64,000 nt of DNA from Strigamia acuminata (Eukaryota). Under the pieces are notes generated by a model. That model was not told the DNA's origin and did no database searches. It saw nothing but the letters and a program-made list of their open reading frames with translations. Numbering within the stretch: the stretch's first letter is position 1; each line of letters opens with the position of its first letter. The stretch spans positions 4,340,001 to 4,404,000 of the forward strand of contig OX442314.1 in NCBI GenBank assembly GCA_949358305.1, written 5' to 3'. Shown here one piece after another: positions 33,446 through 63,624 of the stretch. The position numbers and the translations under genes were made by a program.

Positions 33446-33667
33446 TCAATCATCCCCTTCTTACCTTTTAGGTCTTGCAAGTACAGTCGAAGCTCTTTAT
33501 TACGAATTGCGATATAACGAATTATCCATATAACGAATTGTTAAAAATGTAAAAATGGTTCAAAATTGACAATGGCAAGAAGCCATCAATTGCAGCAGTT
33601 GATTTCAATTTGTCCTGTTTTACAATTTCAACAAATTTAAAGAATCCGGATAAAATTAACAAGATTT

Positions 33668-38426: not shown

Positions 38427-41400
38427 GTGTAATTAAAGGAAAATGAGATGGAACATGATATTCAAAACATCAAGAAAAAGATTCTGCGCGCTGACATGCC
38501 TTACATTTTCGAACCCAAATTTGGACGTCTTTGCGCATTTTTGGCCAGAAAACGCGCATTTTCAATCTGTGCAGGGTTTTTTCGACACTAATATGTTCTA
38601 CAATGGGAGGGTAGTGTAGTGCGCAGAAATATTGTTTTCTTAAGGACAATGGGAGGTAAATTTGACGTCTTTTTCTAGTTGCATCGGTGTGAGTTAACAA
38701 AAAACGACACAGCATGCTGTCAAACATTTCAAATTGTTGTGCGCAAAGTTTAACAATCTTAACCTCACTAGGATTTTCAGGTAAAATGTTAGCTATTAAA
38801 TATTGCATTAACTTACGCGACCAGGGGTCTTCTAATTGGGCTTCAACAATTTCAGCATTAGTTGGCAACAATTCGAACGGTTGGAGCTCGAGCGAGGCAT
38901 CGTGTTCTTGTCTTGTCTGTCTTGGGTTTGTTGTTAATTTTCTATCTTCAATCTTCTTTCCTTCTTGAGTCCACCGACACAATCCAGGCATCGACCTTGA
39001 AGTTGTCATACTTTGCACTGAATATTCCGCTAAAGATGAAAATTCACTATGATCACTGACACTGTCACTCTCGGTAGATGAAATTTCCGCATCCAGGTCT
39101 TCATAATAATCTCGATTATGTTGTTGTTCTACAGTCCTTTCTCTTAAATCAACAAGTTGGGAAATTGGAGGAGTCGGAATTAATGACATGGGTGGCGATA
39201 ATGAAGAGAGACAATTATTAATAGAAGTAGAATTAAAATTTGGTCTTGGATAATTTAAAGATTGGGAAATAGGAACAGGAATCAAAATGGTTTTTTGTGT
39301 TTCTTCTGTTACCCTTGGATGTAAAGTTGATTGAGGAATGTGTTCTAAAGTTTTTGAATCTTGTTCCATCGGTAGACGATCAAAAGGCAAAGAATTCATT
39401 TCATCTGCTACTCCAGTCATATTTTCCAAGTTCTCCGCCACAGATAATTCTTGAGCCATTGAAAATAGCTCAACAGGGTCAGAAATCTGCGCTTGTTCGT
39501 ATGTCATTAACTGATGTACATCCTTGGATCCAGTTAAATGCCATTGGCTGTTTATATAATCGACAGTCAGTCCAATAGTTGAACAAAAATCTCGTCCGAG
39601 TAATAAGTCATCTTTAGTTGATGAAATTACTAAACACTCAAACTGAATTATCCCCATAGGGGCACAAATAGCAATTTGTACTACTCCCTTAATCGGTATT
39701 AAATGTCCAGAATCGACTTGCAGACTGCCATGTAGTTGAAAAAGTTCAAGTCCCATTCGGGCATGTAGTCGATGAAATAAATTTTCGCTCATCACGCACA
39801 TTTGTGCCTCGGAATCAAGAAGAGCGACAACAGATATATCAGTCCATACCATTCTTACACATGGTGGCTGAAGATGCCGTCGATCCCTCCTTGCTATCTC
39901 AATAACAGGCTCTTGTGTTCGTTGGAGCTCGTCAGGAGAAAGCATAACGAAAGGTGTGTTTCCGAGATTGATCATGTCCCGTGGAGTTTCGTCAACTCTC
40001 CTCCTGCGAATAAATGGTACAGAAGCACTATTAGTAATGTTACTCACTTCAGTAGGTGTCAAAATCGGGTTCGAAACTGCCTTTGGCAAAGTTGCAGTCC
40101 TCGAATTGGTCGGTGAGGCAAACTCCAAAGCAACAGGTTGCCGTGCTGCAAACTTTGAAATTGTCCCCGTTGGAGATGACAAGAATGATGGTGGTGAAAT
40201 TGTAACAATATTCCTCGGTTTAGACTCTAAAAGAGTATAAGTCAAAGGTGTTGTTAAGTGTGTAGCCCTTACGGAATTTCTTCTGGAAAGGTTGAATGTT
40301 GGTGATGCGCGTCTGTCGATTTCCATACATTTTGCGATTGATTGGTTTGGTGGATTTAATGTCGACCTCTCTAGCATTCCGTGGCAGTCAGGGCACCTAG
40401 GTTGCTGTTGATCAACAAATTCTACTCCAAAATAACTGCTACTAGCTGTATTTCCTCCATGTTGTACTGGTTGTTTAGTCCATGACTTAGAAACGGTCCA
40501 ATCGGAAGAAAAACGTTTTCGAGAGTGCGCAAAATGTTTGGAATTGTTGGACACGGTAAAGTTTACGTCTCTTTCACTTCTGGATTTCCTCGCAGCGTTC
40601 AGCATTGTTGGTAAAAATAACTCTTCAAGGTGTGGCATTCGTTGGTCTGCGTAGTCCCGCGGTGTATATCCGTGTACAGGTAGAGTTTCAAACTGTAGTT
40701 GTTTTTTGGCGTCATGTTCCCTCTGGATGGCTTCATCGATAGATGTTGCATTCCAGTTGCGCATGAGTCGTATGGCGTCGTCTGGCAACACAGTTGGCAC
40801 TTTTTTACACTGAAAATCATTATTTCCATTACCTGCGGACATTTTTGCAGTTGTCGCACACGTTGGTCGCGCTGTTGTTGTAATTGTTGGCGCTATTAAT
40901 TTTCGTTCCGTAGTTGAACTCGAATATTGATGCGTACAAGCTGTTTGGAATCCAGATCCTGATGAAATCGAGTCGCCATTCCCCCTAATGAATCCATGCG
41001 GGGATCCACCATCCGCGGACCGGGTAGTCCTTGGCTGTGTAGGGCTGGGGCCTTGTTGAAGAAGGTTGCGCATATCGTCCAGCAAACCCTGAGCTTGGTC
41101 GAGCAGATTGAACATCAACCTGTGTTCCGCCGATAAATGGGGATGGGCTGATGTCCTTGGCGAGGTCAAACGGAAAAAAGATGGCGTCGCAAATACATTA
41201 TTTTCTAGCGTCGTAATGGGCACATCACTAGTAGCATTTTCGGTTCGCGATATGCTTGTTTCCTCCAACCGTCCAAACTGTTGCCAATTCTGCTCAATCT
41301 CAGTCTCGTCTGTGCTAAACGAGTCGTGTGAAATGAAAATATTCTCATCTCTCTCCATCGTACTCGATAGGGTGAAAAAATGTGAAAAGTGATTAATAAT

Positions 41401-42301
41401 TAAACAAAAAATACTTAACTTTCTTGCGCGTTTAAGCCGAAATTAAGGTAGCGAATCCTGTCAGGCTCGCCATGTTGTCACGATTAATTCTAGATGTAAT
41501 AATTAATTTAACAAATGTCGCGCAAATGGGAATTTGGCGCAACAGAAATGGGCAAAGTTCGTAGATTTCCCTAAACTTTGTTTCCTTCAAATGAGGACAT
41601 CCAGAAACTCAGGAAACCTAAACTCGCTATGACTTAACATTATTTATAATTAGACATGAATTCGTACCTTTGGGCGGTGTTTAGTTAAAATAAGAATTAT
41701 GCAAATGTGTCCGTTTTCAAAAGGAGGGTTGAAATGTGCACAGGCATGTCAAATGATAAAAGATGGCTTAAAATATGGCGCAATAGGGTTAATGGATGGG
41801 TTGCGGTGTTTAGGCGCAAAGAAAGAGATTTGACATTCTCATTCCACCAGACCAGGGTGAGACCTGGTTGTCAGTCTAGATGGAAGAGGAGAAGTGAAGT
41901 TATTGTGGTCAGCAAAGCTATATGTAGCCTCTGATCAGGTAATCAGTGGGCCAAACTATTAGTGTGAATAATTATTTCTAAGAGGAGGGGGAAAGTAGAA
42001 TTAAATGTAATTGTTGGAAATAAATGAGATGCGCAAGGAACTCCATGCGCATATATTGTTAAGATGAGTCGGCACAAATGAGTCATTTAGGTTAAATAAC
42101 ATAGGAAATAATATATAAGATGTTGGAAGAGTTTAACTAATCAGAAAGAAAGGGGTAAGGTAAAAGAAACATCATGCGCAAAGAATTATTTGCGCCCATT
42201 CAAAGTAGAATAACTTAGGAACACTGAAATGAAATAACAGAGAAAAAGGTAGGAATAATATAAATTAAGAAAAATTATAATGAGGTGAAAACCATGCCCA
42301 T
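33668..42301 (-). mobile_element. Non-autonomous Ty3/gypsy-derived LTR element in intron 7 of copy C
   Basis: About 830-bp LTRs at 33668-34499 (TGTCA...TGACA) and 41476-42301 (outer 4 nt lost), with few differences. PBS TGGCGAGCCTGACAGGATTCG (tRNA-Arg-like). PPT GGGTGGGGGA. No TSD recoverable. Confidence 0.9.
38470..41358 (-). CDS. 962-aa ORF: S/T/P-rich N-terminus, retropepsin-like domain and integrase H2C2 zinc-binding region; no RT, RNase H or integrase core
   Basis: VALLDSEAQMCVMS...LLLGRDF; AQLEDP; LH..HISVEKTLHRLKMRVFWPKMRKDVQIWVRKCKACQ, then stop. Confidence 0.75.
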   Translation of the reverse strand: MERDENIFISHDSFSTDETEIEQNWQQFGRLEETSISRTENATSDVPITTLENNVFATPSFFRLTSPRTSAHPHLSAEHRLMFNLLDQAQGLLDDMRNLLQQGPSPTQPRTTRSADGGSPHGFIRGNGDSISSGSGFQTACTHQYSSSTTERKLIAPTITTTARPTCATTAKMSAGNGNNDFQCKKVPTVLPDDAIRLMRNWNATSIDEAIQREHDAKKQLQFETLPVHGYTPRDYADQRMPHLEELFLPTMLNAARKSRSERDVNFTVSNNSKHFAHSRKRFSSDWTVSKSWTKQPVQHGGNTASSSYFGVEFVDQQQPRCPDCHGMLERSTLNPPNQSIAKCMEIDRRASPTFNLSRRNSVRATHLTTPLTYTLLESKPRNIVTISPPSFLSSPTGTISKFAARQPVALEFASPTNSRTATLPKAVSNPILTPTEVSNITNSASVPFIRRRRVDETPRDMINLGNTPFVMLSPDELQRTQEPVIEIARRDRRHLQPPCVRMVWTDISVVALLDSEAQMCVMSENLFHRLHARMGLELFQLHGSLQVDSGHLIPIKGVVQIAICAPMGIIQFECLVISSTKDDLLLGRDFCSTIGLTVDYINSQWHLTGSKDVHQLMTYEQAQISDPVELFSMAQELSVAENLENMTGVADEMNSLPFDRLPMEQDSKTLEHIPQSTLHPRVTEETQKTILIPVPISQSLNYPRPNFNSTSINNCLSSLSPPMSLIPTPPISQLVDLRERTVEQQHNRDYYEDLDAEISSTESDSVSDHSEFSSLAEYSVQSMTTSRSMPGLCRWTQEGKKIEDRKLTTNPRQTRQEHDASLELQPFELLPTNAEIVEAQLEDPWSRKLMQYLIANILPENPSEVKIVKLCAQQFEMFDSMLCRFLLTHTDATRKRRQIYLPLSLRKQYFCALHYPPIVEHISVEKTLHRLKMRVFWPKMRKDVQIWVRKCKACQRAESFS

Positions 42302-45517: not shown

Positions 45518-48500
45518 ATTGTTTAGTAAAAAAAACGGCTATCGATTTGCGATGTACGTGGGAACTCCCTGCATCGTGTTATTGCGGAATTTACGTTTTT
45601 TTGAGCTGCATATACGCAAGTTGGAACCAGTCTTTACACATTAAGCAATCAGTGTGGAAAATAATCCTCTGGGTGTTGATTGGAGCAATGAATGAATCCA
45701 GACGAGTTGCAACAAACGTCCTAATCGATAGGTTTTAATACGGCAACTGAACCTCGTGGGTTCTACAACAATACAATGCCGCTGGCAAGAGGCTGCATGC
45801 GCAAAATCGCTATTTTAGAACACTATTTTAGAACATTCTGGAATATTTAAACAATATACATTTGAAATCTATTTATAGAAAACATAAATTACACAATCAG
45901 AACATATTGCATGGCTACTTTTGCTATTCATCAACCTCTCCAGAAGTCCTAAAACCATAAACACTTTCATTTAAAGAAGTGACACCACAAAACAGAACTA
46001 ACACTAAAAACTAAACTTTTGTGAATTCCGTTTAATTAAACTATACTTGTTTCAGATCGCCGTACATGTCATCACCAACTTTGCCACCTTGCAGCACGAT
46101 GGAAGATATTAATAGTGCCCATATTCAGTATTTTCACAATTCCAATTCCAATATAAAAACTTGCAAATGTAAACAACCTTGCAAAAATACTTATTACCAA
46201 ACTACTGAGCATGAATCTAAAATGAAATTTAATTTTCGCACTTATATAAAGCTTCAGCTAGCTGATAGTTTTGACGAGACTACAATAGACAACCTAAATT
46301 ATCCAATATCTCGCTTGTTATGTGATGTCGGCAGCATTATCGGATTAGCATTGGGAATGTCAATACTTTCTTTGCACATTTATCTTTTAAAAATTTATAA
46401 TTGGTTTTGCCACAAAAGGGTTGTCCATAAATTACGTAATGCCAATTTTGGGCATTTTAGACCCCTTCTCCCCCGCTGTATCAAGGCTGTAACAAATTCC
46501 CATACCCCCACCCCCTAATTACGTAATAAAAATGAAATTACCCCCCCCAGTAAGAACCAATCAGACGTTAAAAGCGGTTTGTTATGCGCAGTATTGTATC
46601 TCATTCATCAAATCGCGAACTAGTTCAAGTTTAAGTTCATCACCATGTGAACTAGTTCACATTCGCGTTCAGTTCACTTTTTTTCAAAGTGAACTAACTT
46701 GTAAGTTCTAGTTCGCGAACTTGAACCAATAGTTCAGTTCACTTTTCAAATTAATTTTTTAAAAAATTGAAACGTTTTTTTTTTATGTTTTATGGTATGC
46801 AGATGAAAAAAAAAAACACTTTTTTTTTGTAAAACGGTTGTTTTCATTGCTTTTAATGATGAATACGACTGATTTTGCCGTTTTTGTTGTAAAAAGTGAT
46901 TAAATTGAATGTTTTGATGATGAAAACGTCATCAAAACGTTTAAAACCAATGCAAAAAGTTACGTTTTTGCGACGTTTTCATCATCAAACATGGTGAACG
47001 CAAACTTCGTTCTAGTTCATTGTTAAAAGTTGTTGAGATATCGTGTGTATTTATCACCTATAATGTGCATATGTTTATACTTGTATCGTATTATCATTTT
47101 ATCGCATTATGTATCAATGTATTACCTTTTGTGCTTGGCAGTGAAGATAATCACAGCCTTTGTTTACATGTAACTTGTATATGTTGCCTACAGGTGGCTC
47201 TGGTGATGTCACAAGTCACATGGTGTATGAATAAACACTCACTTGATGTTTTGCTACTCACCTGTAAAGATGGACTCTAATTCTTTATCCAGTTGATGTT
47301 TTTCCAAACCACTGTTTTTACAACTCACTACAAGTTCTACATGAACATACAACAAGGTTATGGGCCCCAAACAACGTGGGAAAAACATCAAGAGTGTTTG
47401 AAAACACCTCAAGTCAACCACAGGTGAAAAAGTGGGCGTTTCTCCTCCAAATCCAAGATGGCGGCGTCCATGAGGAAAGTCATCAGCCTGTGTTTGTGCC
47501 GACAATCAACGAGATTGGCAGCGATTATCGACTATCCAACGATGCAGGAACACTAAATGGGTTCGAACATTACGAAACTTTTCATTAATAAGTTTAATTT
47601 TCCAATTTTCGGACGATTTTCCGAATATCGCGAGGCGCGATACGTAACGTCGACGTGGCGTTAATTTTTCGTCGAGAAAGCGACTCAACGAGGAAGACGT
47701 GACGACGACGACTCTCGGCAACCACACGGGAAGTGTGAACGAGCTGCGGACGAAAAACGATTGGAAAAACGCGGAAAAGTTTAATGGACGAATTTTCGAG
47801 GCGAAAAAGACACTAAAACGAGGAGAAAACAACACAAGAAGACTAGAACTTTTGTCGATATTACTATTGTTTCGAATATATTGTGAATATATTGTTAGAT
47901 TAGTGCTGTGTTAGGAAATAATACTAACATAATTTTAAGAGCGCATTAACCTCGTGGAAATTGCACTATTTTTCACGAGTAACCGTTTTGAAAGTGTTTT
48001 TGCTAAAAAGTGTGTGTGTGCAGTTTGAAGAGATTGTTTTCCTAAATCACAATGGATACGGACAAACCGGAGAGGAAAATAACACTTTTGAACAGAACGA
48101 ACTATGACACTTGGAAGCAGCAAATCAAAGTACTTTTGATGCATCACGGATGCTGGGCGTTCACGGATGGAACAGAAGAGGCGTTGGCGCCCGGAGCATC
48201 GTGGCGGGACCGCTCGGATTTCAAACTGCGACAAGGCAGGGCCTTTAGTTTGATATACTACTCGATAGAAGAGCAGTACCATGAGTTGCTCAGCGGGGTC
48301 GACGACGCCAAGAAGGCTTGGAACACATTGAAAGCCAACTTCGAACCAGTTTCAAGAGCGCGGATAATTCGTTTGTTGGACGAATTTTTTAGTCTAAAAT
48401 ATGACCCAGCGACGGAGACAATCGGGGTCTTCGCAGCAAAGATTCGAAACGCGGCAAAGAAGCTCGCCGACGTTAAACACAAATTGGACGACCTATACCA

Positions 48501-51500
48501 AGCTTTTCAACTAATTCGTTACCTGCCAGCGGAATACCAATCGATTGTCCAGGCTATTTACCGGTGGGAGGACGCGAATTTCACGTTGGAGAAAGTGGAA
48601 GCCGAATTGGTCGCCGAAGAAGGGAGATTGGCCCAACAACGAAGAGATTCGGGCCAAGGACCAATAGTGGACGCTTTTAACATGGGTACGAGCGCCACGA
48701 ACACCAAAACCAGCGATAATTCCCAGCAACAAGGCAATACTGGCCAAAATAGTCGTGGTTTTCAAGGCGGACAAAATCGTGGCAAATCGAATTATAGAGG
48801 AATTCGAGGAATTTTCGGGGAAATACGACCGGATCATCACCACGGGGGCCGTGTTTCCGATGCAATCAGCCAGGACATTGGGCGAGGGACTGCACGGCGC
48901 AGCTCGCGTCAAATAACAGCCAGAACACAAATACAGCGGAAGAATTGGACACTAACATGTTCGACGTCGGTTTTCTCACCGAGTTGAGCGAAGAAGAGAT
49001 GTTGCAGTGCAGCGCAGCCAACAACTGTTGGATCTACGACACCGAGGCCACTGGACATTTCTGTAAAGACAGAAACCAATTTTTCAACTTTAAAGAAACA
49101 ACAGGAACTATTAGCCAAGCGGATAAGAAAACTTTGATTCAAATCCAGGGCGTCGGGGACGTCTGCGTGATGAGTTTAGTCGGAAACGAGACAATTCCGA
49201 TTACACTTAAGAAAGTTTATTATGCGCCAGACTTGCGAAGGAATTTGTTGTCGGGACCATGCATTGATGAGGCACGATGCAAAGTCGCCGTTGGCTCAGG
49301 ACTAGTCAAGATATACGATCCTCAGTGGAAAAGGCAATTCATGGAAGGCGTGAAGAAGGATCGTTTATATTACATCAAGCTGAGCGACCAGAAGCCCGAC
49401 TTTGAGAAGTTACGACAGAAAGCAAACAACAAAGCGAATATTGGCGAACAAAAGAAACAAGAGCCAACTAATTCAATAAAGAACACAACAAAGAGCGCAT
49501 CTAATCCAGAGGAAGCGAGACTTTGGCATGAGCGGCTGGGACATTTTTATTTTCCAAGTGTACAAGAGATGAGTAAGCGAGGAGCAGTAATTGGATTGCC
49601 AATTCTCGATGTCCCAATCACGCAATGCGATGTTTGCACGTTAGCAAAGAAGAAAGCAGTCTCACACAAGTCGATACCAGGGATTAGATCAACAGAACCA
49701 CTGCAGCTGTTGCATATGGATGTGTGTGGAGCATTTAGCACACCAACGCTCTCGGGAAACAAATACTTCTTGACTATTACGGACGACTTCTCTCGTTACT
49801 CCACAGTCTATTTAATGAAGAAGAAGGACGAAGTATTTGAAATTTTCCAAAAACATGCGAAACGGATAGAAAGACTGTTAGGAAAATCAATTTTAGCCAT
49901 TCGCACGGATAATGGCATGGAGTTTTGCTCCAACAAGTTCGGACAGTACCTTGAAGAGCAAGGAATCGCCCATGAGATGACGAATGCGTACACGCCCGCC
50001 CAGAACGGCGTTTCCGAGAGACTGAACCAGACATTAGCAAACGGCATGCGTGCGCTCGTTTACGATGCCGGTTTGGAACATCGATTTTGGGGCGAAGCTA
50101 TTCTAACGTTCAACTATTTGAGAAACAGAATCGCAAAGCTCAACTCGGAGAAGACGCCGATGGAGCTTTACTATGGTCGGAAACCATCTTTACGTCACCT
50201 GAGAAAATTCGGAAGTCTTTGCTTTGTGCAAAAAAGAATACGGGATGGAAAGATAGACAACAAGAGTTTGCATGGCATTATGCTCGGATATTCGAGAATC
50301 ACGAAAGGATATCGAGTATGGCTGCCGGAATTTTCGAAGGTTATCGAAACCAGCGACATAAAATTCGTAGAGAGCAGGCGCGGAGTTGAAGGCGTGCTGG
50401 ACTTACCAGAAAAGTATACGACATACATCGATAATTTGGACGACAATTTGGACATTGACAATGAGCGCCAATATTATTCGGATGAAGATATCAGGCCGCC
50501 ACTACCCCCGCCAGTACCCCTTAAGAAGAAGGAGGATCCACAACTGGAATTGCCTCCAGTTAAATTGAAATTTAGAATGCCAGATGAGAAATTGCGACAT
50601 AATTTACCAGAAGTGAAGTTACAGGGCACTTTGCCACAACCCGGACAAGGACTTTTGAATCCAGTTCCAGATATTCCGGCACTCGTTTGGAAGAAAACAG
50701 AGAAAGTCAGACCGACTGGACAGAGGGATGTCGAGTACACGATCGAGGGCTACGACAAACCCAAGTTACGCTCGATACCCGACGTGAAGCGTTACTGCAC
50801 AGAGCACAATCTTCGCGTACCTGAACATCTGTTTGAGGACAAAAGGAAGAAGAAGCCCTCAGAATCCAATACGACAACAGATACTCTTGACCTGGACTTC
50901 GATGATATGAATATCAACTTTGAAGCTAATCATCTAGAAGTCTACGTGCCTGTACGTTATGAAGAAATAGCGACTCTACCCGAAAAGGATGAATGGCACC
51001 AAGCAATGAACGACGAAATTGACACTATGCATGAGCGCGAGGTTTGGGAACTCGTTCCACCACCGCCCAACACTAAGATAGTGGGTTGTAAGTGGATTTA
51101 CACAACCAAACAGAACGAAGAGGGGGAAATCGCACGTTACAAGGCGAGGCTTGTTGCGCAAGGATTTTCTCAAGTCTACGGCGAGTCGTATGAGGAGACA
51201 TTCTCACCCGTAGTAGACTTCTCAATCGTGCGCTTCATGTTCACGCTACTCGTCTGCATGCTAAAGTGGTCGTACATCCAGGCAGACGTCAAATGTGCGT
51301 ACCTCTACGCGAAACTTCATAAGACTGTTTACATGCGTCAGCCGAAAGGTTTCATTTCTAAGGAAAAGGAAAACTATGTCTGCCGACTCCTCCGAGCAAT
51401 ATACGGACTACATCAATCCGGAAGAGAATGGGGCATAGAACTAGAAGAGACTTTATTGAAGTTAGGACTACCGTCTTCCCCCGAATAAAACACCATGGTG

Positions 51501-51773
51501 TTGTATTCGAGTTTCGTTAAAAATCGCAAGTTTGTAAACATTGAGCAAAAATTCGAATATAACACCACTTCAGCTATAACACCATGGTGTTATATTCGAA
51601 TACAACACCATGGCGTTATATTCGAATTTTTAGAAAAATATGAAAGACGTACAGTGTACGCTTCCAAAACGCAACCGAAACATGCACAGGGTTTTACTTA
51701 TTTAACTTACACATTTAACAGGTTTGTTTATTGAAGGTGTGTTGTGCAGTGCTGCGAACAGGGTTGTTTAGAA

Positions 51774-52118
51774 ATGTGTGAATTCAAGTTAGTTAGTGTT
51801 GTTAGAGGCTATCATGTTTACAAATCAATCTGGGAAGCAAAAATTGGAGAGAAATTAGTGTGCTGTTTAGAGGAAACGAATAAACACTGCAAGTTTGCAG
51901 TTGCGGTATTCAAGCCAGATGATTTGAATACTGTTCTGGGTCATGTTCCAAGAGATCAAACTACAAAATTTTATAAGTTTATTAAAAATGGCGGCCATAT
52001 AAGTTGTGAAATAACAGGGAAACGAAAGGGTTCAAACCGTAAAGGGTTAGAATTACCTTGTTGTTATTCATTCTCTGGGACAGAAAAGGCTGTCAAACAA
52101 GTAAAAAACAAATTTTAA
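51774..52118 (+). CDS. HIRAN-like domain protein carried by the transposon
   Basis: VRGYHVYKSIW..GEKL.C..E.TNKH.KFAVAV..LGHVPR..CEITG..GLELPCCYSF fits the HIRAN pattern. AATAAA follows the stop. Confidence 0.75.
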   Translation: MCEFKLVSVVRGYHVYKSIWEAKIGEKLVCCLEETNKHCKFAVAVFKPDDLNTVLGHVPRDQTTKFYKFIKNGGHISCEITGKRKGSNRKGLELPCCYSFSGTEKAVKQVKNKF

Positions 52119-52172
52119 TTCAGTGTGCATGTTTATTAAAAATAAAGTTATAAAATAAATAAAATAAAAAAT

Positions 52173-53882
52173 TTATTGAATCATTTTTATACAGTATTTG
52201 CACTCATTTAGCTTTACTAAAGTGATTGTCTCGTCAGCATTTTCATTTGGAAATGTGATGACATCACCTGTGGTATCGTTTCTTAACTCGATGTTGCATT
52301 TTTCCATAACTGAAGCTGCATATAATTCGGTTTTTCCACCATCACTCGTTTCCTGACGCAAAGTTCCGAAATAATCGTGATCTGTAATATCTTTTAATTC
52401 CTCTAAGTTTTCCATGAACTTGACTAACTTTTCTTTGTATGTCCTCCAGTTGCCATCATTACGACCTTTCTTAAAAAAAAGACACTTGTAGACAGATCCT
52501 GGGTTAGTCTCTGGAACATACCAGTCAGGTGGTTCGTATAAATCAGTAATGTTGCTGTCAGTTAGCTCAACATAATCCGAATACAATTCATTCCAAACTG
52601 TAATATCGAAGCTGGGTTCAAATAAAGCCTTCAATGGCAAATGAAGAATTGAGAGATCAAACTTCTGCTTAGATACCAATCCACAAACAGCAAATGCTTT
52701 TTGAACTTCTTCACAAGTTTTCGTTTTGATCCATTCGATAATCCATTCAGAAACCATCAAGTACGCTGGAACTTTCACATTGCCAGCCTTGGTCTGTAAA
52801 GAGGAATCTTCCAATGCACGACCAAGATATTCGTCGTAGCGAGTTCGATAGAAAGCCTGGAAACTTCTGTTGATTGCAACATCCAAGGGTTGAAGGAGAT
52901 TGGTCAAATTCGGAGGCACTAACATAACAAAAATATTGTATTTCTCCAATTCTTTAGACTCTTCTAATTTAACGTGGGGGCCATAAGAATCGATGATGTA
53001 GAGAATTGGCTCTCTGTAAAATGACGTTTCTGGCCGTACGATAATACTGTCTTTCGTAAATCGAAGTAGAATATCATCATTCCACATTCCCGTCTTGTTT
53101 ACATCAACAAGAATGTCTTTGTGAACAGTCGGTTTGTTTTTTAACCCAGAAAACAGAATATGAGGTCGTAAGAATTTACCGTCACCAGTAATGGCGAATG
53201 TAGCAGTGAAACGTTTATGGGATGTGCCGCCCTTCCGCATGAGCACGTCGCGACTGCCTTTAGTTGTTATAGTAGAGTTAGGTTCCGTTTCGAAATACCG
53301 AGGGACTTGATCCATGTTGATTATGTTTTTTTCTTTGATGTTATGCTTTTCAATAAGAGTATGAACCGATTGTATAAATTTTCTGCTAATATCGTCGGCA
53401 CCAACAGGTAGAGATCTGCTTGAAGTTTGTCGTCTCGACACAAGATTTTTCCGCAATTTAAATCTTGCAACCCAGCCAGAAGAAGCTACGAATTCATCAT
53501 CTTCATCCACGGAACCTTCCTCTTTGTACCGAATGTGTATATTTAGAGCTTTTTGTCGAATATATTGGTCTTTAATCCGGAGCCCTTTTCGATTCTTCTC
53601 CGTAATCCACGAGTGCAATTCCTCTTCTAAGTCGGAATATTTTAAGTTTTGTCCACCTCCATTCAATCGACGAGTTTTACGCGTTTCTATTTCGTTATTT
53701 TCCAACGCAGCCTCAAGTTCTTTTCTTTTATCTACCCAACCTCGAATCGTTTCTCGACTAATTTGGTACTTTTTTGCAAGTGCTGGCACACCTTTGCCGG
53801 GAACACCTTTTTCGTATTCGCGAAGGATATCTAACTTAGCTTTTATCGTGTAACTTTTTCGCTTTGAACCGCTTTTAGACAT
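52173..53882 (-). CDS. pogo-type transposase (N-terminal HTH, CENP-B-type HTH, DD35D domain, OTU-like C-terminal extension)
   Basis: RKSYTIKAKL; LEEELHSWI..FVASSGWVARFKLR; NMDQVP, IIDSY and LQPLD with 35 residues between the second and third Asp. The ORF is intact. Confidence 0.93.
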   Translation of the reverse strand: MSKSGSKRKSYTIKAKLDILREYEKGVPGKGVPALAKKYQISRETIRGWVDKRKELEAALENNEIETRKTRRLNGGGQNLKYSDLEEELHSWITEKNRKGLRIKDQYIRQKALNIHIRYKEEGSVDEDDEFVASSGWVARFKLRKNLVSRRQTSSRSLPVGADDISRKFIQSVHTLIEKHNIKEKNIINMDQVPRYFETEPNSTITTKGSRDVLMRKGGTSHKRFTATFAITGDGKFLRPHILFSGLKNKPTVHKDILVDVNKTGMWNDDILLRFTKDSIIVRPETSFYREPILYIIDSYGPHVKLEESKELEKYNIFVMLVPPNLTNLLQPLDVAINRSFQAFYRTRYDEYLGRALEDSSLQTKAGNVKVPAYLMVSEWIIEWIKTKTCEEVQKAFAVCGLVSKQKFDLSILHLPLKALFEPSFDITVWNELYSDYVELTDSNITDLYEPPDWYVPETNPGSVYKCLFFKKGRNDGNWRTYKEKLVKFMENLEELKDITDHDYFGTLRQETSDGGKTELYAASVMEKCNIELRNDTTGDVITFPNENADETITLVKLNECKYCIKMIQ

Positions 53883-56800
53883 TCTGTATGTTGATACAAA
53901 TTCAAACACGTAGGTAATAAATGAGATGAGATAATTGAACCAAGGATTCGTTCCTACAGGAGACTGGCAATGTTACGTGGTCCTATTGTTTGTATACTGA
54001 TTGTGTTTTGTACCGAACGTGTTTCGTACGTTTGCTGTCAATACAGCACACGTACATTTTTATTTAGTTTATTTTTATTGTTGTTTTATTACTTTAAATA
54101 ATACAAAAAAATAAGAACATTTTTTAATCACAGTCAGAAATACATATTAACAATTTTCCTTTTTTTGCAAAGTTACATGTCAATTGACGAATACAACACC
54201 ATGGTGTTGTATTCGAATACAACACCAGGGTGGTGTTATATTCAAATACAACACCATGGTGTTTTATTCGGGGGAAGACGGTAGAGCATGTAAACTGGTG
54301 CAATTGCGTCTATAAGTATGGAAATATCGCCTATATGATCGTCTACGTCGACGATATTGTAGTTTTTGGAAAACAACATGCAGACGCAATGAACATACTC
54401 AACATGATCGGAACACAGTTTGATCTGGTCATACTTGGACAAACTAAGAAGCTTTTGGGAGTTGAATTTTATCCCTACAAACAACAAATGGTTCTTCATC
54501 AGAAATCCTATGTCAACAAAGTGTTGTTAAAATTCAAGAACCACTTGGACTCTGTAAAGATTCGATCCCAACCAATGACAAAGGCAACTATCCTCACGAA
54601 GCGGGAATGTCCGAGCACGATTGATGAATTTAGAATCATGGAAGCAATTCCCTATCGAAGTTTGCTTGGATGTTTAGCGTTTATCGCATCGAGGACAAGA
54701 CCTGATTTGACGTATGCAGTCAATATCCTAAGCCAATTTCAATCGAACCCAGGATGGGATCACTGGACAGCATTATTGGACCTACTCAGCTATCTGAGAA
54801 CGACGAGAAATTACGGATTAATGTTGTTCCCGAATGATCGGATCGAAGTTATCGGATACAGCGATTCCGACTATGCTAATAACCGGGACGACCGAATCTC
54901 CGTTGGAGGAACCCTAGTAACGCTGGGCAGCACACCTGTTTACTGGAGAACCTTCAAACAGCGGAATGTGACATTGTCGACAATGGAGGCCGAATATGTG
55001 GACCTTACAGAAACTGTTAAGGACTACATTTGGATAGTTCGTGTCTTACACGAGATTATTCCCGAATTGGCGGATAAGTTCTCTCACCGTGTCTTGTGCG
55101 ACAATATTTCAACGGTAGATTTCACGAAGTCTTGCGTTGAAAATCGAAAAACCAAGCATATAGACATCCGATACCATTTTATCAGAGAACTTGTCAAGAA
55201 AGATGGTCTTCAAATCATCCATGTCGGCACAAAGTCTAATTACGCGGATATCTTCACAAAGTCCGTTGATAAGACGGACTTAGTACAATTCTGCAGTCGC
55301 TTTTTGATTGATTTAAGTGTTCTGCGTGTTTGATACAAAGCGAGATAATTCGAGGGGGCCGATTGTTGAGATATCGTGTGTATTTATCACCTATAATGTG
55401 CATATGTTTATACTTGTATCGTATTATCATGTTATCGCATTATGTATCAATGTATTACCTTTTGTGCTTGGCAGTGAAGATAATCACAGCCTTTGTTTAC
55501 ATGTAACTTGTATATGTTGCCTACAGGTGGCTCTGGTGATGTCACAAGTCACATGGTGTATGAATAAACACTCACTTGATGTTTTGCTACTCACCTGTAA
55601 AGATGGACTCTAATTCTTTATCCAGTTGATGTTTTTCCAAACCACTGTTTTTACAACTCACTACAAGTTCTACATGAACATACAACAAAAGTGAACTAAG
55701 TTCGTTTTTTCCGTTCACTTGTAAAAGTGAACTAGTTCCCATTCTTAGTTCGCAAACTAACGAACTCAGTTCGCAAACTAGCGTTCGATACAACACTGGT
55801 TATGCGCCTCGGGATTGGTCGTTAGAACGATTGTTGTTTTGTTAGGCCTAATCTCATTCGTAGTTATTTATAGCCCAAGCTAGTGGTAAATTCTCAATTT
55901 TAAAACATTAAAAAAAAATTTTTATGGACCATATCATTATTTAGAACTCCCCCTCTTCCTTACTAATGACCTGTAATAAAATCTGAAACCCCCTCCCCCC
56001 CTTGGAGCGTTACGTAATTTATGGACGGCCCCAAATTGGCTGGCCAATTTGTCTAATCTAGAACTGCATAAAATCGATCCAAATGTTTCTGCACCAAGTA
56101 TTGACTAAAGTGACAAGCTACTTACCCACAAATTCATCGTGCAAGTCTACATGCGAATTACGAGCCATTACTACCTTTCCATTAGCATGCAGAGTAAAAT
56201 TCACTAACCATATTTCCGTATTCAGCTACCAATGAACCTAGATCGATCATGTGATCTTACCATTGTAAAAATGTCATCTTCAATGAGTACCTGCAAAGCG
56301 TGAATGAAGAAATTGGGTTTTCACTGAAGATGAGGTTGAGATCTCAAATCTTTCTGTGAACAGGCTATAAGGTTAAGTTCGAATTGATTTGAATTGCATT
56401 CTATCCAAAAAAAGTCAAGTTTTTGTCATATTTGGTCACATTTCGATCACATTTTGGTCATTGTTTTATCACATTTTTGTCACGTTTCTATCATGTCCTA
56501 ATCATGTTTCTCTTGTTTATCTTAGCCACCATTTTTTAATGTATATGGTCACTAAATAACCTGAGGTCTAAATGATACACTCTATTTATGTAGATTGTTG
56601 GGTTGCCTAGCATTCCTAGGCAACCTTTTACTTCTTTCGCTAATAAAATACTTCAGTTAACTCCCAATCCTCATTTGTGAAGTGTAAATCATTCTTGGTT
56701 CTTGCATTTAGAACCAAAAACTTGAGTTTCTATCACGTTTTCTTCATGTTTTGTACATAAATTTGGCAGAGAAGTTCAAAAATCTCAAAAAATTGTGTGA

Positions 56801-57543: not shown

Positions 57544-60500
57544 TGTGACCGCTTGGCCATCCACGGTGACCTGCATCACTGCCACACACCGCCTTACGGC
57601 CCCAAGGTCGTTCCCTCTTGCGGGTGGACTGACCCAATACGGGGGAGGGAGGGAACTGAGTGGTGTGGTGAGGAAAAGATGTGAGAGGTGAGAGAAAGCA
57701 GCGGCGACCACCAACGAGACAAGACGTGTCCAAGGCGTGACATGAGCAAGGACAACCCTGCCCTGTGCTGACTGCTCTTCTCACCATTCACTACGCCGAA
57801 GCTCAGTAGTATGGCGTGTTCCATACTGCAGCCTCCATGAGTGGCTGCTTGGGTTGTAGGTAAGTTAGACATGAATATTATGTTGAATCAACCACATCAC
57901 CCAAGGGGCTCACGCTCTGTGTGTGATGGGTAAGTTGCCGGTGTGGTGTGCCTAACTGGCACCCCTGCAACAGGTGACGGGATACTCCAACCCCTAGACA
58001 ACAATATTAAAGGCCAACAACCAGCAACATGGAGTCTCTTGTCATTATTGGAGTGTTCTACTCCATTGGTCAACCTTGACCAATTGTATCGTTTCCGGCA
58101 CTTTTACAAGCAGCGCCACCTTTTTGTTAATTTGAATAAAATTAGTTAATTTAGTTTACTATGGCGACATGTTGTCTTTCTTGACCATCTTTTATCAAAA
58201 CATAAGAACACACTAATTGGCAACGAGGAGGATCGCAATCGACAACCCACGACCAGATGCAGTATCGTATCTACTTTTTTGTGAGTTTTGTGAACATTTG
58301 ATGAACTTTTTCGCCGTTTTTGACCGTCGCTGACCACGCCGTCCCCGAAGTAGGCCTAGTCGTTTTGTGCTTCGAATTTTCGCGTTTTTTGTGCCATATT
58401 CCGCCTCCTTGCCATCAAGATGTCGACGTTGAAAGGCACACCTGCGAATACGATTCTAGCGATGACTGGGAACTATATTGCTTGCGAATGGCGAGTATTT
58501 TCGCCTGCAACAAAATAGTTGACGATTTGGAGCAGGTCCACACGCTGCTCTCGTACGTGGGCATGCTGACGTTTAAATTATTGGTGTCGCTTGCAGCACC
58601 CAAAAAGCCAGCTGAACTGAAGTACGCCGAATTGGTAGCGCTCGTGCAGAAGAACGCCCGCCCAAAGCCGCTCACTTTGCCGAAATTCAACGATTCCATC
58701 GGCGCGACCGCCTACCAGGTGAATCGGTTACTGAGTATTCCGTGGTTCTCCAGGAACTCGCCCTGAATTGCGACTTTAAAGATAATAAAGCAGACGAGCT
58801 GCGGAATCGCTTTTTATGTGGCCTGCAAAATGAGCAAGTCCAACAAACGTTGACTTTGAAAACTGGACTGACTTTTAACGATGCAGTTGCCTTTGCAGCT
58901 TCCGCCGAGGTGTCATCGAAGGAATTTTCGACCATTGCTGCCCAAAATACCACCGCCACTCCTGTGCATACAATTCACGAGACGAAACCACAAGACGAAA
59001 CCACGATACGAGTCAAGAAGGCGAGACGGGAAGCGCTTCACAAAGAAAAATGCTGCTTCTCCAGTTCCACACCAACCATCCAGTAAAGGAAATGCGTCCG
59101 GGTGTTCAGCCTGTGGTAAATCGAACCACTCTCGTGATATGTGCCGTTTTCGTGACGCCAAGTGTCATGGCTGTGCAAAGACTGGACATATTCGTCCGGT
59201 GTGTCGTTCCTCCGCTCTGAAGTCGAATTCCACTCACGTTGTTCGCCTTGCTGAGGACATGGACTTCTATCAAGTTCTCACTGGTCCTGCAACTGCAGTT
59301 AATTCTGTGTACTTGCCACGTGTTAAGCCAGTTATGATTACAATTTGTATCGATGGTGTTGATCTCGATATGGAGATGGACACGGGGGCAGGTGCTTCTA
59401 TTATTGCTTTGGATTTGTATTTAAAATATTTTTCTCATTTTCCTTTGCAGACCATTCCGTGCGGCATGTTCATGTTTACGGGCGACCAAATACCGATGGA
59501 GGGAATCATTGAGATGCCAGTCAGGTTTAAAAATCGAAATTTTCAATTGCCACTCTGTGTCGCACGGGATGGTCCAGTTCTGTTGTTGTTCGGTCTCCTT
59601 TCGAAAACTGCTGAAGCGGTCGGCGCGAAAATTTACAAGGCCAATTCCGTTGCACCCCAGTCCGAGGTTTTAGATTCCACTTCCGCTAAAGCTTTGGAAA
59701 CGTTGCTGTTGAAGCACGAGCACACCTTCCGAGACGAAATTGGTTGCTTTAACAAAGCTAAAGTCCACATTGATGTTGACCCGGCAGTACAGCCGATTTT
59801 TTTGAAAGCCTACCCAGTCCCTATTGCAGTTAAGCCATTAGTTGAGGCTGAGTTGGCGCGTTTGCAAGCGCTTGGTATTATAACCCCAGTTGCATCGTCG
59901 CGTTGGGCGACGCCTGTTATGCATGTTAAAAAGTCCGACGGCACCATTAAGTTGGCTGGCTGTTATAATAGGACGATAAATAAGGCTATATTTCCACTCC
60001 CTTTATTTGCAGATGTGACCACAAAATTGTCGGGGGGGGGGGAAACGTATTCTGTACTGGGTATGACGTCAGTTTTCAACCAATTGGAACTAGATGACGA
60101 GAGTAAAATGTTCTGCACGATTAACACTCATTTGGGCCTTTTCAGAGTTAATAGGTTGTTTTATGGTATTTCATCCGCTCCTGCTCTATTCCAACAAACG
60201 ATGGACCAGTTGACTGCCAAGGTGAACAGCACGCAACCATTTATTGATGATTCTGCAGTGACAGGTGTGACTAATCCAGTTCACCTGCAAAATTTGGACG
60301 TTCTCCTGTCAACATTCGGTGGAGCCGGACTCACGTTGAATCGCCGGAAGTGTCGCTTCTTGCAACGGTCGATTCAGTTCTTGGGTTTGAATATTTCTAA
60401 AAATGGTATTTCTCCCATAGATTCCAAGCTCGCTCCACTACGAGATGCTAAGCGCCCCAGCGATGTCTCTTCCTTGAAATCGTTCCTTGGTCTCATCAAC

Positions 60501-62895
60501 TACTACGGTCGATTTGTTGCAAATCTGTCTACTCTGCTCGAACCGTTATATCGTTTAACACGTGACGACGTCGAGTGGAAGTGGACAGAAGAACACGAGT
60601 CCACTTGGAAAAAAGTTAAGGTCGCTGTGTCCACTGAGTCGGCGCTCGCTCACTTTGATCAGACTAAAAAGTTGTTTTTGACAGTTGATGCTTCCCCGGT
60701 AGGCGTAGGAGCATTTTTATCTCATTGTGATCCAGACGGCACTCACAAGCCCATTGCTTTTGCGAGCTCTTTGTTGTCGGCTGCACAGAAGAACTACGCA
60801 CAGATAGAGCAAGAAGGATTTGCTATTATTTATGGCATTAGAAAATTCCATCACTACCTGTTTGGGCGTCGTTTCTTCCTGCGCACGGATCACAAACCCC
60901 TTGTTTCTATATTCGGAGAGAAAAAGGGATGTAATCAGATCGTGGCTGCTCGACTGCATCGTTGGGCGGTATTTCTATCCGCATATGATTTCGTGATTGA
61001 ACACGTGCCTGCTGTGGACAACGCCATTACCGATGGCTTGTCCCGTAACCCACAACCCAGTGTTGACAGCAAAGAAGATTTGGAGGTCGGCATTAACAAA
61101 AATTATTCTGCTTTGATTTCAGATTTCCCCATGTCCGCTACTTTTTTAAAAGCTGCGTACGCAGCTGACGAAGTATTGCAAGATGTTATGCGACATGTTC
61201 GCACCGGATGGGAATCACGCACATCGGACGTCGCAGAATACTACAAACATCGGGACTTGTTTTCAACCTTTGACAAATTTTTATTTTTCTCCGAAAGGTT
61301 GGTGATCCCGAAAGCTGTTCGTCGTTCGGTGTTGGTCGAGCTCCACGCAGGTCATTACGGCATTGTTTGTACCAAATCGTTGGCGCGAGCCACGGTTTGG
61401 TGGCCTGGAATCGATGCAGACATCGAACGCATGATAAAGAATTGTGACGTATGCCAGCGAAGCCTACCCGATCCACCAAAATCCACCAAAATCGAACACT
61501 GTCAGTTGGCCAGTTTCTGACCAGGTGTGGGGACGCGTGCACCTAGATTTCGCCGGCCCGTTCCACAACGCAATGTTCCTGCTGGCGGTTGACGCCAAAA
61601 CCAAGTGGTGCGAAATTCGCAAGATGTCGACGACAACTGCTGCCGCCACTATCGATGTGATTAAGTCGTGGTTCGAAAATTACGGTTTACCACTGCATTT
61701 TCACACCTACAACGGACCACAATTCACCTCACAGGAATTTTGTCAGTTTTTGGCAGTAAACGGAATCCGCCACACTCTCTCACCGCCATACCATCCAGCT
61801 ACAAATGGCGCGGTTGAGGGTTTTGTGAAAACTTTTAAAAACCAAGCTGACAAATTTCTAACCTTGAATTTCTCCTTGTCGGATGCCGTATCACGCTTCA
61901 TCGCATCGTATCGCTCAACACCTCACGCCACGACGAAAGTTTCACCAGCTGCCGCCTTTCTTCAGCATGAAATGCGAACTCGACTACACTTGCTGAACCT
62001 ACGACTTCTGCCTGATGTCGACCAGATTGACATCGCTCGGTGTTTCGATGTTGGGGATCTTGTGTTTGCAAGAGACTACCGGGGCACTCCTAAGTGGGTA
62101 CCAGGTATTATTAAGACGAAGACTTCCTCATCTACGTACGACGTGGAAGTTGCCCTTGATGTGACATGGAATCAACACATTGACCAGTTGCGACGTCGCG
62201 CAGATGCCAGTTTGTTGCCACAAAATGGGGGGAAAGATTGTAGAAGTTCCCTTCTTCCTTTTTCACTCACTTCTCAACCAACTGCACCGCCTGTGCCTGT
62301 GCCTGATCCACCACTTGTCATTCCACCTGCTGTCGTACCACAAAATGTTGTGCCAATACACGCACCGCCGTTGCCCGCTCGTGCGCCATCGCCACCTGCG
62401 ATCGCTGGTTCCAGTGTTCCAGTTCCAACAGTGCGCAGCCCTCGACCGGTTCAAAACAGGAAACAAACGGACTTCTTCGGTTTTCCACCAAATTAATATT
62501 TGTATGTGTTTTGAAATAATCAATTCCATTGTGTATTCGTTTTAAGTTCAATCATGTTTTATTAGCCATTTTTAAATGTGTTTGTTGTTTAACCTTTTTC
62601 ATTCCTTCCTTGTATTTTGTATAATTGGTGTTTCTCCCAATTAAAGGGGATGTTGAAGTGTTCTACTCCATTGGTCAACCTTGACCAATTGTATCGTTTC
62701 CGGCGCTTTTACAAGCAGCACCACCTTTTTGTTAATTTGAATAAAATTAGTTAGTTTAGTTTACTATGGCGACATGTTGTCTTTCTTGACCATCTTTCAT
62801 CAAAACATAAGAACACACTAATTATACGTGAGTATGCGTCCCAAACCAGGATAACCAGTCCCCGGGTTACCTTGGCAAAGACCATACCAGTCACA
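57544..62895 (+). mobile_element. Family X copy split by the gypsy insertion (57544-58048 and 62826-62895)
   Basis: TGTGACC start, GTCACA end, and colinear with 43498-44088 once the insert is removed. Confidence 0.75.
58049..62820 (+). mobile_element. Decayed Ty3/gypsy (Mag-like) LTR retrotransposon
   Basis: 167-bp LTRs at 58049-58215 and 62654-62820 with a few mismatches. TSD ATTAT, PBS TGGCAACGAGG, PPT AAAGGGGA. Domain order is gag with two CCHC, PR (MDTGA), RT (FIDD), RH, IN. Several frameshifts; catalytic Asp lost in RT (VLGM) and IN (TYNG). Confidence 0.93.
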
Positions 62896-63366
62896 TGGGG
62901 AATATTAAATGTTCGTTTATATGACTGTCAATTTATGTAGTGAGAGATTCATTCTAGGACAAGTTATCTTGAGCTGAAATAAACGCGTCTATACTTTACT
63001 GATTTTGGAGTTGACTTGTTTTATTTATTGAATTGCTTGTAGTTGCCTAGGAACACTCCCAGACAACTTTACAATAAATGAGTGAACCGAAATAGTATTG
63101 TTAGAAAGAATGATGTCTTGATGATAGTCAAATATGGTGGACACGGCACATAGTTTTTTAATAGAAATTCTAAATGAGTTAAATCTCAACGGATTAAAAT
63201 ATTTTGAAAACTTTTATTGGACATTTACTGTAGTTCACAAAATTCCAACAGTCAATATCAGTATTTCTTGGTTTTCCGTGTCACAACATCAATAATTCAA
63301 CCCATTTTTATCCAATTAACTCCTGAAAGGCCTGACTGACAAGCAGCGCATACAGAACTGTACTTA

Positions 63367-63437
63367 TCTATAATCGACCACTATGTTGCTGGGAAACTAT
63401 GTATTAATACACACGTGTTGTCAGTTCACCTTGAACT
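63367..63437 (+). promoter_or_regulatory. Conserved upstream block of copy D (putative promoter)
   Basis: 63155-63610 closely duplicates 30302-30790. Confidence 0.6.
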
Positions 63438-63624
63438 CTGCAAGAGTCACACAGCAGAAACTACAGCTACCAGCTTAATTGAAAAGCACATTCAAAAACA
63501 AAATATCTCTTCTGCATACAGGATTCAAAATTCACAAGTCTGTGTCCACATTTGTCAACATCATAAATGTAATTATAAACCACTCAATCTTCTACACTCA
63601 TTTGTTGTGCGATTAACCGAAGCA

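What the first reader, a model, noticed from the sequence alone, without database searches (positions are those of the whole stretch)
51774..52118. pogo-type DNA transposon carries a second gene encoding a HIRAN-like domain
Seen: an intact 114-aa ORF inside the TIRs, convergent with the transposase, with poly(A) signals in the 54-bp gap. Known: Tc1/mariner/pogo elements usually encode only a transposase, and the HIRAN domain of HLTF/Rad5 binds free 3'-OH ssDNA ends at stalled forks. Inference: an accessory protein that protects transposon or donor 3' ends, or steers insertion to replication forks. This is a candidate two-component transposon system.
Basis: partly seen in the sequence, partly recalled or inferred. 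Interest (0 to 1): 0.7.

Follow-up and report, generated by a model that had tools for sequence, protein, structure and literature searches.

The report
Pogo transposon carrying a HIRAN gene
This young cut-and-paste jumping gene carries, besides its transposase, a second small gene whose protein has the fold of a DNA-end-gripping (HIRAN) domain; the same pairing recurs in many related animal elements, where the extra protein likely caps the broken DNA ends left after a jump, although this copy has lost the key end-recognising residue.

Summary
Confirmed. Window 51471-54281 is an intact 2,811-bp pogo element (Passer-like, DD35D, 40-nt TIRs, TA duplication) inserted in a young copia element. It carries a convergent 114-aa ORF that is a true HIRAN domain (Pfam above cut-off; AlphaFold pLDDT 90; Foldseek TM about 0.74 to HLTF). 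The link is general: 44 of 80 related loci (18 of 30 families) have a pogo transposase within 3 kb, against none in 125 kb of distal flank. The gene is under purifying selection in relatives, partly tracks the transposase tree, and is often fused to a Ulp1-like protease. Two cautions. First, this copy has Cys at the position of HLTF's 3'-OH-reading Asp94 (Asp in 232, Cys in 0 of 256 homologues). Second, single-gene Passers transpose with the transposase alone, so this is an optional accessory, not an obligate two-component system. Most likely job (inferred): capping 3' ends at the excision break and biasing its repair. I found no description in the papers searched, and a published sponge Passer sequence carries the gene unannotated. 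This scan had already noted the same architecture in other genomes.

The parts
51471..54281 (.). Complete pogo (Passer-like) DNA transposon, 2,811 bp, two convergent genes
   Evidence: TIR pair and TA duplication; contigs of public runs hold the copia sequence without the insert at this site (loose ends at 51470)
51469..51470 (.). Left TA target-site duplication
   Evidence: sequence
51471..51510 (+). Left terminal inverted repeat, 40 nt, starts CCGTC
   Evidence: the first 13 nt equal the TIR listed for Phpa-PasserA-1-SAR (compared by eye)
51547..51631 (.). Left subterminal copies of the palindromic TIR core, likely extra transposase-binding sites (inferred)
   Evidence: repeat families D2, I2, I4, I7
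51774..52118 (+). Stand-alone HIRAN-domain gene, 114 aa, pI 9.4; Cys39 at the position of HLTF Asp94
   Evidence: Pfam PF08797 33.2 bits; AlphaFold; Foldseek; column counts; pI
52119..52172 (.). 54-bp AT-rich gap between the two stop codons, with poly(A)-signal hexamers on both strands
52173..53882 (-). Intact pogo transposase, 569 aa: CENP-B_N + HTH_Tnp_Tc5 + DDE_1; D191, D298, D334 (DD35D)
   Evidence: closest named relatives in Phytophthora, Chara and Riccia, about 50-57% identity for the best named hits
54188..54241 (.). Right subterminal copies of the TIR core
   Evidence: D2, I2, I3, I5
54242..54281 (-). Right terminal inverted repeat
54282..54283 (.). Right TA target-site duplication
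   Evidence: sequence
47030..55688 (+). Copia LTR retrotransposon whose reverse-transcriptase region is interrupted by the pogo insertion; LTRs 47030-47355 and 55363-55688 differ at 1 of 326 bases, so the pogo insertion is recent

Best explanation
This is an intact, recently inserted pogo (Passer-like) cut-and-paste transposon that carries a second, conserved gene for a stand-alone HIRAN-fold protein, which likely binds the free 3' DNA ends left at the excision break and would shield them from host end-processing enzymes. Shown: element ends, both genes, the fold, the recurring linkage, selection in relatives, and the frequent fusion to a Ulp1-like domain with its protease motifs. Established: the transposase alone does the cutting and pasting, and the host must repair the donor break, either by homologous repair (which can restore a copy) or by end joining. 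Inferred: the small protein acts in trans as an optional helper. It would occupy the short 3' single-stranded ends at the donor break (the transposon's own 3' ends sit in the transposase), compete with host HLTF/Rad5-type and resection factors, and so bias repair in the element's or the host cell's favour. In fused versions it would also deliver a de-SUMOylating protease to the break. This copy has Cys in place of the 3'-OH-reading Asp, so its end binding may be weakened or altered. About 0.93 that the gene is a genuine conserved accessory of pogo elements; about 0.45 that end-capping at the break is its job.
For: Fold: Pfam 33.2 bits against a cut-off of 24.7; pLDDT 90.2; Foldseek probability 1.0 to HLTF HIRAN and a bacterial HIRAN, 16 matches at E <= 0.001; the family profile's top five PDB hits are HLTF HIRAN, E 0.014-0.021. 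Pocket conserved in the family: Asn (HLTF N91) 250 of 256, Asp (D94) 232 of 256, His (H110) 251 of 257, Arg or Lys (K113) 218 of 257 (register). D94 reads the 3'-OH (PMC5773155, passage). The pocket fits one dinucleotide and N90/N91 are needed (PMC4666394, section 16). An isolated HLTF HIRAN domain acts dominant-negatively and inhibits resection at Cas9 breaks (PMC11237066, section 13), a direct precedent for a stand-alone HIRAN. Linkage: 44 of 80 loci, 18 of 30 families, 20 of 23 loci with 2.5 kb on both sides; 0 transposase hits in 125,311 bases more than 3.5 kb away. TIR pairs with TA enclose both genes in 7 of those 18 families. Nine 3.1-kb copies of one family, 95-99% alike, sit in different flanks. 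dN/dS is 0.05-0.30 in all 10 HIRAN pairs with measurable dS of 0.1 or more (bootstrap). HIRAN and transposase distances correlate (Mantel rho 0.58, p 0.0002, 18 rows). Of the 120 best long homologues, 108 carry both Ulp1-type motifs; Ulp1 domains of other transposons were proposed to act on DNA repair (PMC2836005, passages). The donor break is repaired by the host (PMC2874221, section 5); Passer footprints are 0-4 bp (PMC9976928).
Against: Cys39 replaces the Asp in this copy and is seen in 0 of 256 homologues. The copy deviates at 5 of 28 strongly conserved columns, as 12 of 148 fully covered rows do or exceed. The two tyrosines that pinch the bases in HLTF are not kept: the Y93 position is variable (His 103 of 256) and the Y72 position is Val or Ile in my inferred register, so the family may bind DNA differently. 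No binding, expression or transposition data exist. dN/dS could not be measured for this copy (saturated), and 2 of 19 measurable pairs, both very young, gave ratios above 1. Single-gene Passers are highly active without the gene. Of 80 loci, 39 are broken, spliced or lack a core motif and 8 are cut by contig ends. The loci were found with one peptide motif and come from a few sponge- and coral-type assemblies (host type inferred), so the families are not independent. Contigs of this organism show derivatives that skip the gene and copies with frameshifts in it.
Confidence: 0.45

Rival explanations
1. Counter-silencing module: the HIRAN fold serves as a DNA- or chromatin-targeting domain that brings a Ulp1-like protease to the element's chromatin to remove SUMO marks used for silencing; stand-alone versions such as this one would be reduced forms or decoys.
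For: 108 of the 120 best long homologues carry Ulp1-type motifs; Pfam Peptidase_C48 hits in fused forms; the aromatic pinch of HLTF is not conserved. SUMO-dependent transposon silencing is recalled, from no call.
Against: The 3'-end pocket residues Asn, Asp and His are the most conserved positions. Protease-free HIRAN genes are also under purifying selection (for example L020/L030, dN/dS 0.09). This copy has no protease.
Confidence: 0.2
2. The family gene is functional, but this lineage's copy is degenerating or has changed function; the Asp-to-Cys change would abolish 3'-OH reading, or form a metal site with nearby His14, His38 and His57.
For: Cys39 in 0 of 256 homologues; five deviations at conserved columns; long branch in the HIRAN tree. 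Earlier scan notes describe Cys/His HIRAN-like partners in protist pogo elements (AI notes, not checked here).
Against: The ORF is intact, folds with pLDDT 90 and scores higher on Pfam HIRAN than most relatives scanned. The insertion is young. Cys is two base changes away from Asp, which fits a lineage trait better than recent decay (inference). The commonest listed variant in the 5' part of the ORF is synonymous.
Confidence: 0.2
3. Target steering: the protein binds nascent 3' ends at stalled or moving replication forks and draws the transpososome there, coupling jumps to S phase.
For: HLTF HIRAN binds the primer 3' end at stalled forks (PMC5773155).
Against: No fusion to a transposase among the 120 best long homologues, so a tether would have to be non-covalent. 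The partner transposases fall in at least four deeply separated groups, which argues against one conserved interface (inference).
Confidence: 0.1
4. Obligate two-component transposon (as recalled for PIF/Harbinger): the small protein is required for transposition.
For: Persistent linkage and partly congruent trees.
Against: Tc1/mariner-type transposases need no other protein (PMC2874221, section 5). Single-ORF Passers are active in human cells. A CCGTC-type oomycete Passer of 2,196 bp with a 612-aa transposase has no room for the gene.
Confidence: 0.04
5. Neutral cargo: a captured host or microbial gene fragment that rides along without function.
For: Many copies are broken; patchy presence among Passers.
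Against: dN/dS of 0.05-0.30 between diverged copies; retention through four gene arrangements and several deep transposase groups.
Confidence: 0.03

Closest known systems
Passer family of the pogo superfamily (Gao et al. 2020, PMC7386202: passages, section 8 and 29 rows of the Passer supplement sheet, first 400 bases each; Passer tool paper PMC9976928: passages)
   Same: TA duplication, DD35D DDE_1 transposase with HTH_Tnp_Tc5, TIR starting CCGT (first 13 nt equal to Phpa-PasserA-1-SAR), length within 1.6-4.0 kb
   Different: Described as single-gene elements; 'HIRAN' occurs 0 times in either main text and 0 times in the 8 supplements of PMC7386202. This element has a second gene, a 40-nt TIR and a 569-aa transposase whose first HTH scores as CENP-B_N. 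The representative sequence of Amqu-PasserB in that supplement begins with this HIRAN gene, unannotated (translated by eye).
HIRAN domain of HLTF/Rad5
   Same: Same fold (TM 0.73-0.75) and, in the family, the Asn, Asp, His and basic residues of the 3'-end pocket
   Different: Stand-alone or fused to a Ulp1-like protease rather than to a SNF2 motor; tyrosine pinch not kept; this copy has Cys for Asp94; 14-19% identity to the solved HIRAN structures
Multi-ORF members of the IS630-Tc1-mariner group: ciliate TBE and Tec (PMC7325037, passages)
   Same: Extra ORFs inside the TIRs of a Tc1/mariner-type element
   Different: Their extras are a zinc-finger protein, a small unknown ORF or a recombinase, not HIRAN; different transposase families
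Ulp1/OTU-carrying DNA transposons: Ginger1, Mutator, Helitron (PMC2836005, passages)
   Same: A ubiquitin-like protease carried by a DNA transposon, proposed to act on repair after transposition; matches the fused HIRAN-Ulp1 relatives
   Different: In Ginger1 the protease is fused to the transposase; here it is on a separate gene behind a HIRAN domain, and it is absent from this copy

Membership tests
pogo superfamily | DDE_1 transposase with CENP-B/Tc5-type HTH domains | tested here: met
   Pfam HTH_Tnp_Tc5 51.6, DDE_1 37.8, CENP-B_N 27.6 bits, all above cut-off
pogo superfamily | TIRs and TA target-site duplication | tested here: met
   empty site in other copia copies
Passer family | DD35D catalytic spacing | tested here: met
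   D298 to D334, 35 residues between; these Asp are invariant in 44 sequences
Passer family | TIR begins with CCGT | tested here: met
   against the supplement rows, by eye
Passer family | Short TIR (under 30 bp) and transposase of 400-500 aa | tested here: not met
   40 nt and 569 aa; the supplement itself lists CCGTC-type Passers with 35-37-nt TIRs and 612 aa, so the rule is loose
Passer family | BrkDBD + HTH_Tnp_Tc5, or HTH_Tnp_Tc5 alone | tested here: inconclusive
   the first HTH scores CENP-B_N above cut-off and BrkDBD 19.7 bits, below its cut-off of 23.4
Passer family | Placement within the Passer clade on a tree with named references | not tested
   no named Passer sequences were in the tree; it groups with a clade that holds Phytophthora, Chara and Riccia proteins
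Passer family | Single ORF | tested here: not met
   second intact gene inside the TIRs
HIRAN domain (PF08797) | Profile match above the gathering score | tested here: met
   33.2 against 24.7 bits; Atlas neighbours all HIRAN, score 0.94
HIRAN domain (PF08797) | Beta-barrel with helices, as in HLTF | tested here: met
HLTF-type 3'-end-binding HIRAN | Asp94 that reads the 3'-OH | tested here: not met
   Cys39 in this copy; Asp in 232 of 256 homologues
HLTF-type 3'-end-binding HIRAN | Asn91 and His110 of the pocket | tested here: met
   N36 and H57; 250 of 256 and 251 of 257 in the family
HLTF-type 3'-end-binding HIRAN | Tyr72/Tyr93 stacking pair | tested here: not met
   His38 at the Y93 position; Val15 at the Y72 position in an inferred register (no residue-level structural alignment was obtained)
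HLTF-type 3'-end-binding HIRAN | Binds free 3'-OH single-stranded ends | not testable with these tools
   needs a binding assay
Obligate two-component transposon (PIF/Harbinger-like; definition recalled) | Second protein required for transposition | not testable with these tools
   indirect evidence against:

The most novel reading that the evidence does not exclude
Pogo transposons across animals (and, by this scan's unchecked notes, protists) carry an old, overlooked accessory module: a HIRAN end-binding protein, often armed with a SUMO protease, that takes hold of the excision break and steers host repair toward restoring the element from the sister chromatid. That would let a cut-and-paste element actively turn itself into a copy-and-paste one.
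Probability: 0.2. Interest if true: 0.85.

Novelty: new variant of a known kind. Interest (0 to 1): 0.6.

Why it matters
Pogo and Tc1/mariner elements are textbook one-gene transposons, and how they gain copies or limit damage at the donor break is usually left to the host. A conserved transposon-encoded end-binding protein would be a handle on that step. It is directly testable, because an active Passer assay in human cells exists (PMC9976928). It could also serve as a small tool to modulate break repair in transposon or nuclease-based gene delivery. It shows that transposase-centred surveys miss a second gene even in sequences they list.

Tried and rejected
No whole genome is held, so copies in this genome could not be counted. 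No RNA holder was listed; this says nothing on expression. Contigs were laid only on 51170-52125, so the transposase half was not examined; depth is no copy number, and the table showed 40 of 220 differences, none at codon 39, so whether Cys39 is a family trait stays open. Single-sequence phmmer against PDB found nothing significant. Viral contigs: 14 pattern matches, no relative. Genome contigs: 5 loci in assembled bacterial genomes; they show the same pogo architecture and are probably host DNA in those bins, so I rejected them as evidence of a bacterial range. PHROG matches are weak, unknown-function families and do not settle the origin. The HIRAN and transposase profiles are unrelated. 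Complex prediction of HIRAN with the transposase was not available and nothing was folded; the VIA-align structural comparison was not available either. The careful transposase tree did not finish; the quick tree is cited. In one search, 8 of 27 HIRAN pairs, including all three with this copy, had undefined dS by NG86. L024 was left out of the trees as too short; L049, L043, L070 and L077 show neither a nearby transposase nor a clear TIR. Literature: searches (HIRAN with transposon, transposase, transpos*, pogo, Passer; pogo with second ORF; mariner with Ulp1) listed no paper on HIRAN in pogo elements, judged from titles and abstract starts. Three listed HIRAN papers were read at their HIRAN passages and do not mention it. 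One search was swamped by the name Hirano. Kile 2015 and Hishiki 2015 were not held. Repbase entries and subscription journals were not searchable; I recall reports of two-ORF L31 elements with a Ulp1 gene but found no such paper. Look-ups of earlier findings by sequence and by place were empty.

Full report
Observation. The ORF is as described: 51774-52118 (+), 114 aa, convergent with a 569-aa ORF at 52173-53882 (-), with 54 bp between the stops. The element runs from 51471 to 54281, with 40-nt TIRs (one mismatch), extra subterminal copies of the TIR core, and TA on both sides. It interrupts the reverse-transcriptase region of a copia element whose 326-bp LTRs differ at one base, so the jump is recent. 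Contigs from three public runs hold the copia sequence without the insert at this point. No second copy lies in the window. An ORF this long arose in 5 of 2,000 shuffles; the poly(A) hexamers are modestly above chance in an 87% A+T gap. The host is an animal (cluster of amiloride-sensitive channel genes), possibly an arthropod, since a nearby copia carries a methyl-CpG-binding domain (PMC6673714, search listing only).

The transposase. Pfam gives CENP-B_N, HTH_Tnp_Tc5 and DDE_1; the triad is D191, D298, D334, that is DD35D. The closest relatives are unnamed (67% and 62%); the best named ones are from Phytophthora, Chara and Riccia. The TIR's first 13 nt equal those listed for an oomycete PasserA element (by eye). 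I call it Passer-like, not a tested member: TIR and protein are longer than the stated norms, and no named reference was in my tree.

The small protein. It passes Pfam's HIRAN cut-off, and its nearest Atlas clusters are all HIRAN. The AlphaFold model on a 72-sequence alignment has pLDDT 90.2 and matches HLTF HIRAN structures with probability 1.0. It belongs to a large family: 111 hits in one search and 457 clusters at E <= 1e-10 in another, none closer than about 50% over most of its length. Using the alignment to HLTF and the residue roles in PMC5773155 (passage) and PMC4666394 (section 16), the family keeps the Asn, Asp and His of the 3'-end pocket (250 of 256, 232 of 256, 251 of 257) but not the tyrosine pair. 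The numbering of H110 and K113 was counted along the chain printed; the role of K113 is recalled. This copy has Cys at the Asp position, which none of 256 homologues has.

Is the linkage general? A scan of metagenome contigs with one motif gave 98 relatives, of which 80 were kept. A transposase profile seeded with this element's protein and iterated on these loci found a pogo transposase within 3 kb in 44 of 80 loci, 18 of 30 families (80% identity clusters) and 20 of 23 loci with 2.5 kb on both sides, and in none of 125,311 bases further than 3.5 kb away. Pfam confirmed DDE_1 in all 7 of the linked transposase ORFs that I scanned. The arrangement varies: 9 families convergent, 7 divergent, 2 tandem. 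TIR pairs with TA enclose both genes in 7 of the 18 families; many other contigs are too short to show both ends. Of the 12 families without a transposase, 4 are TIR-bounded HIRAN-only elements of 444-921 bp, 4 show a TA-CCGT left end just upstream, and 4 show neither. One family has nine 3.1-kb copies in different flanks. So nearly every member with context is part of a pogo element. The reverse does not hold: many Passers have one ORF (PMC9976928). Among 29 supplement rows of PMC7386202, of which I saw the first 400 bases and which I did not translate systematically, I recognised the gene in one, Amqu-PasserB, where the authors do not annotate it.

Selection and history. dN/dS was measurable in 19 of 27 HIRAN pairs; it was below 1 in 17, and 0.05-0.30 in the 10 pairs with dS of 0.1 or more. 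Third codon positions were the most diverged in all 7 pairs bootstrapped; one pair's bootstrap reached above 1. The pairs are not independent. HIRAN-bearing transposases fall in at least four deep groups, including one with CAGT ends (quick tree). HIRAN and transposase distances correlate (rho 0.58; 17 families plus this copy), though host relatedness may contribute and this copy's HIRAN has no supported position. Of 80 loci, 33 have the three core motifs in one open frame, 8 are cut and 39 are broken, spliced or divergent: ordinary decay of transposon copies. In this organism's contigs there are derivatives that skip both genes and copies with frameshifts in the HIRAN gene. Long homologues (206 found, best 120 examined) are mostly HIRAN fused to a Ulp1-like domain, 108 of 120 with both protease motifs, and none is fused to a transposase.

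Mechanism. The transposase needs no partner for chemistry, and the donor break is left to host repair, which can restore a copy or leave a footprint (PMC2874221, section 5; Passer footprints 0-4 bp). That the cut leaves short 3' overhangs is recalled. A HIRAN pocket holds two terminal nucleotides, and an isolated HLTF HIRAN domain blocks HLTF and resection at Cas9 breaks (PMC11237066, section 13). I therefore infer an optional helper that caps 3' ends at the excision break and biases its repair, with the fused protease editing SUMO marks there. None of these steps is shown for the transposon protein, and the Cys in this copy makes it a poor representative for a first assay. Rivals: counter-silencing (0.2), degeneration or a changed site in this lineage (0.2), fork steering (0.1), obligate partner (0.04), neutral cargo (0.03).

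Novelty. The searches named under Tried and rejected found no paper describing HIRAN genes in pogo elements; Repbase and subscription journals were out of reach. The scan's own notes report the same architecture in other genomes; they are unchecked and are not counted as support. What this window adds is a member, in an animal host, of the transposase clade that includes oomycete and plant elements, with an altered pocket. Verdict: a real new variant of a known kind, interest 0.6.

Noticed in passing
window 16699-21579 (-): Intact 1,627-aa copia polyprotein frame with a methyl-CpG-binding domain (Pfam MBD 40.7 bits) between the SH3 and RT domains, between near-identical 483-bp repeats (16202-16684, 22746-23228); resembles the arthropod copia-MBD family of PMC6673714 (search listing only).
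   Followed up: partly
window about 50680-50830 (+): The copia that hosts the pogo element has an MBD-like stretch at the same place by eye; Pfam did not report it.
   Followed up: no
window 3206-6449, 14700-15758, 24266-24820, 30807-32741, 46036-46515, 63340-63999: Cluster of duplicated amiloride-sensitive sodium channel (DEG/ENaC) genes on both strands, interleaved with retrotransposons.
   Followed up: no
window 28717-29702: Tandem array with a 54-bp period (18-bp sub-unit) that keeps long frames open on both strands.
   Followed up: no
window 38473-41442 (-): 990-aa frame with only an integrase zinc-finger hit near its end, between 832-bp repeats that are 99% alike (33664-34495, 41472-42301): an unusual LTR element.
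   Followed up: no
window 58048-62823: Gypsy-type retrotransposon with 171-bp LTR-like repeats.
   Followed up: no
L009:175-920, L037:5825-6391, L067:348-791, L069:309-1182, L074:860-1780, L081, L084: Small TIR-bounded elements that keep all or part of the HIRAN gene but no transposase.
   Followed up: partly
L048:2578-4530 (-), L061:1232-3148 (-): Transposases of the CAGT-ended HIRAN-bearing group start with a Cys-rich, zinc-finger-like extension (by eye).
   Followed up: no
L081, L083-L085: Pogo-HIRAN elements on long contigs filed as bacterial genome bins; probably animal host DNA in those bins.
   Followed up: partly
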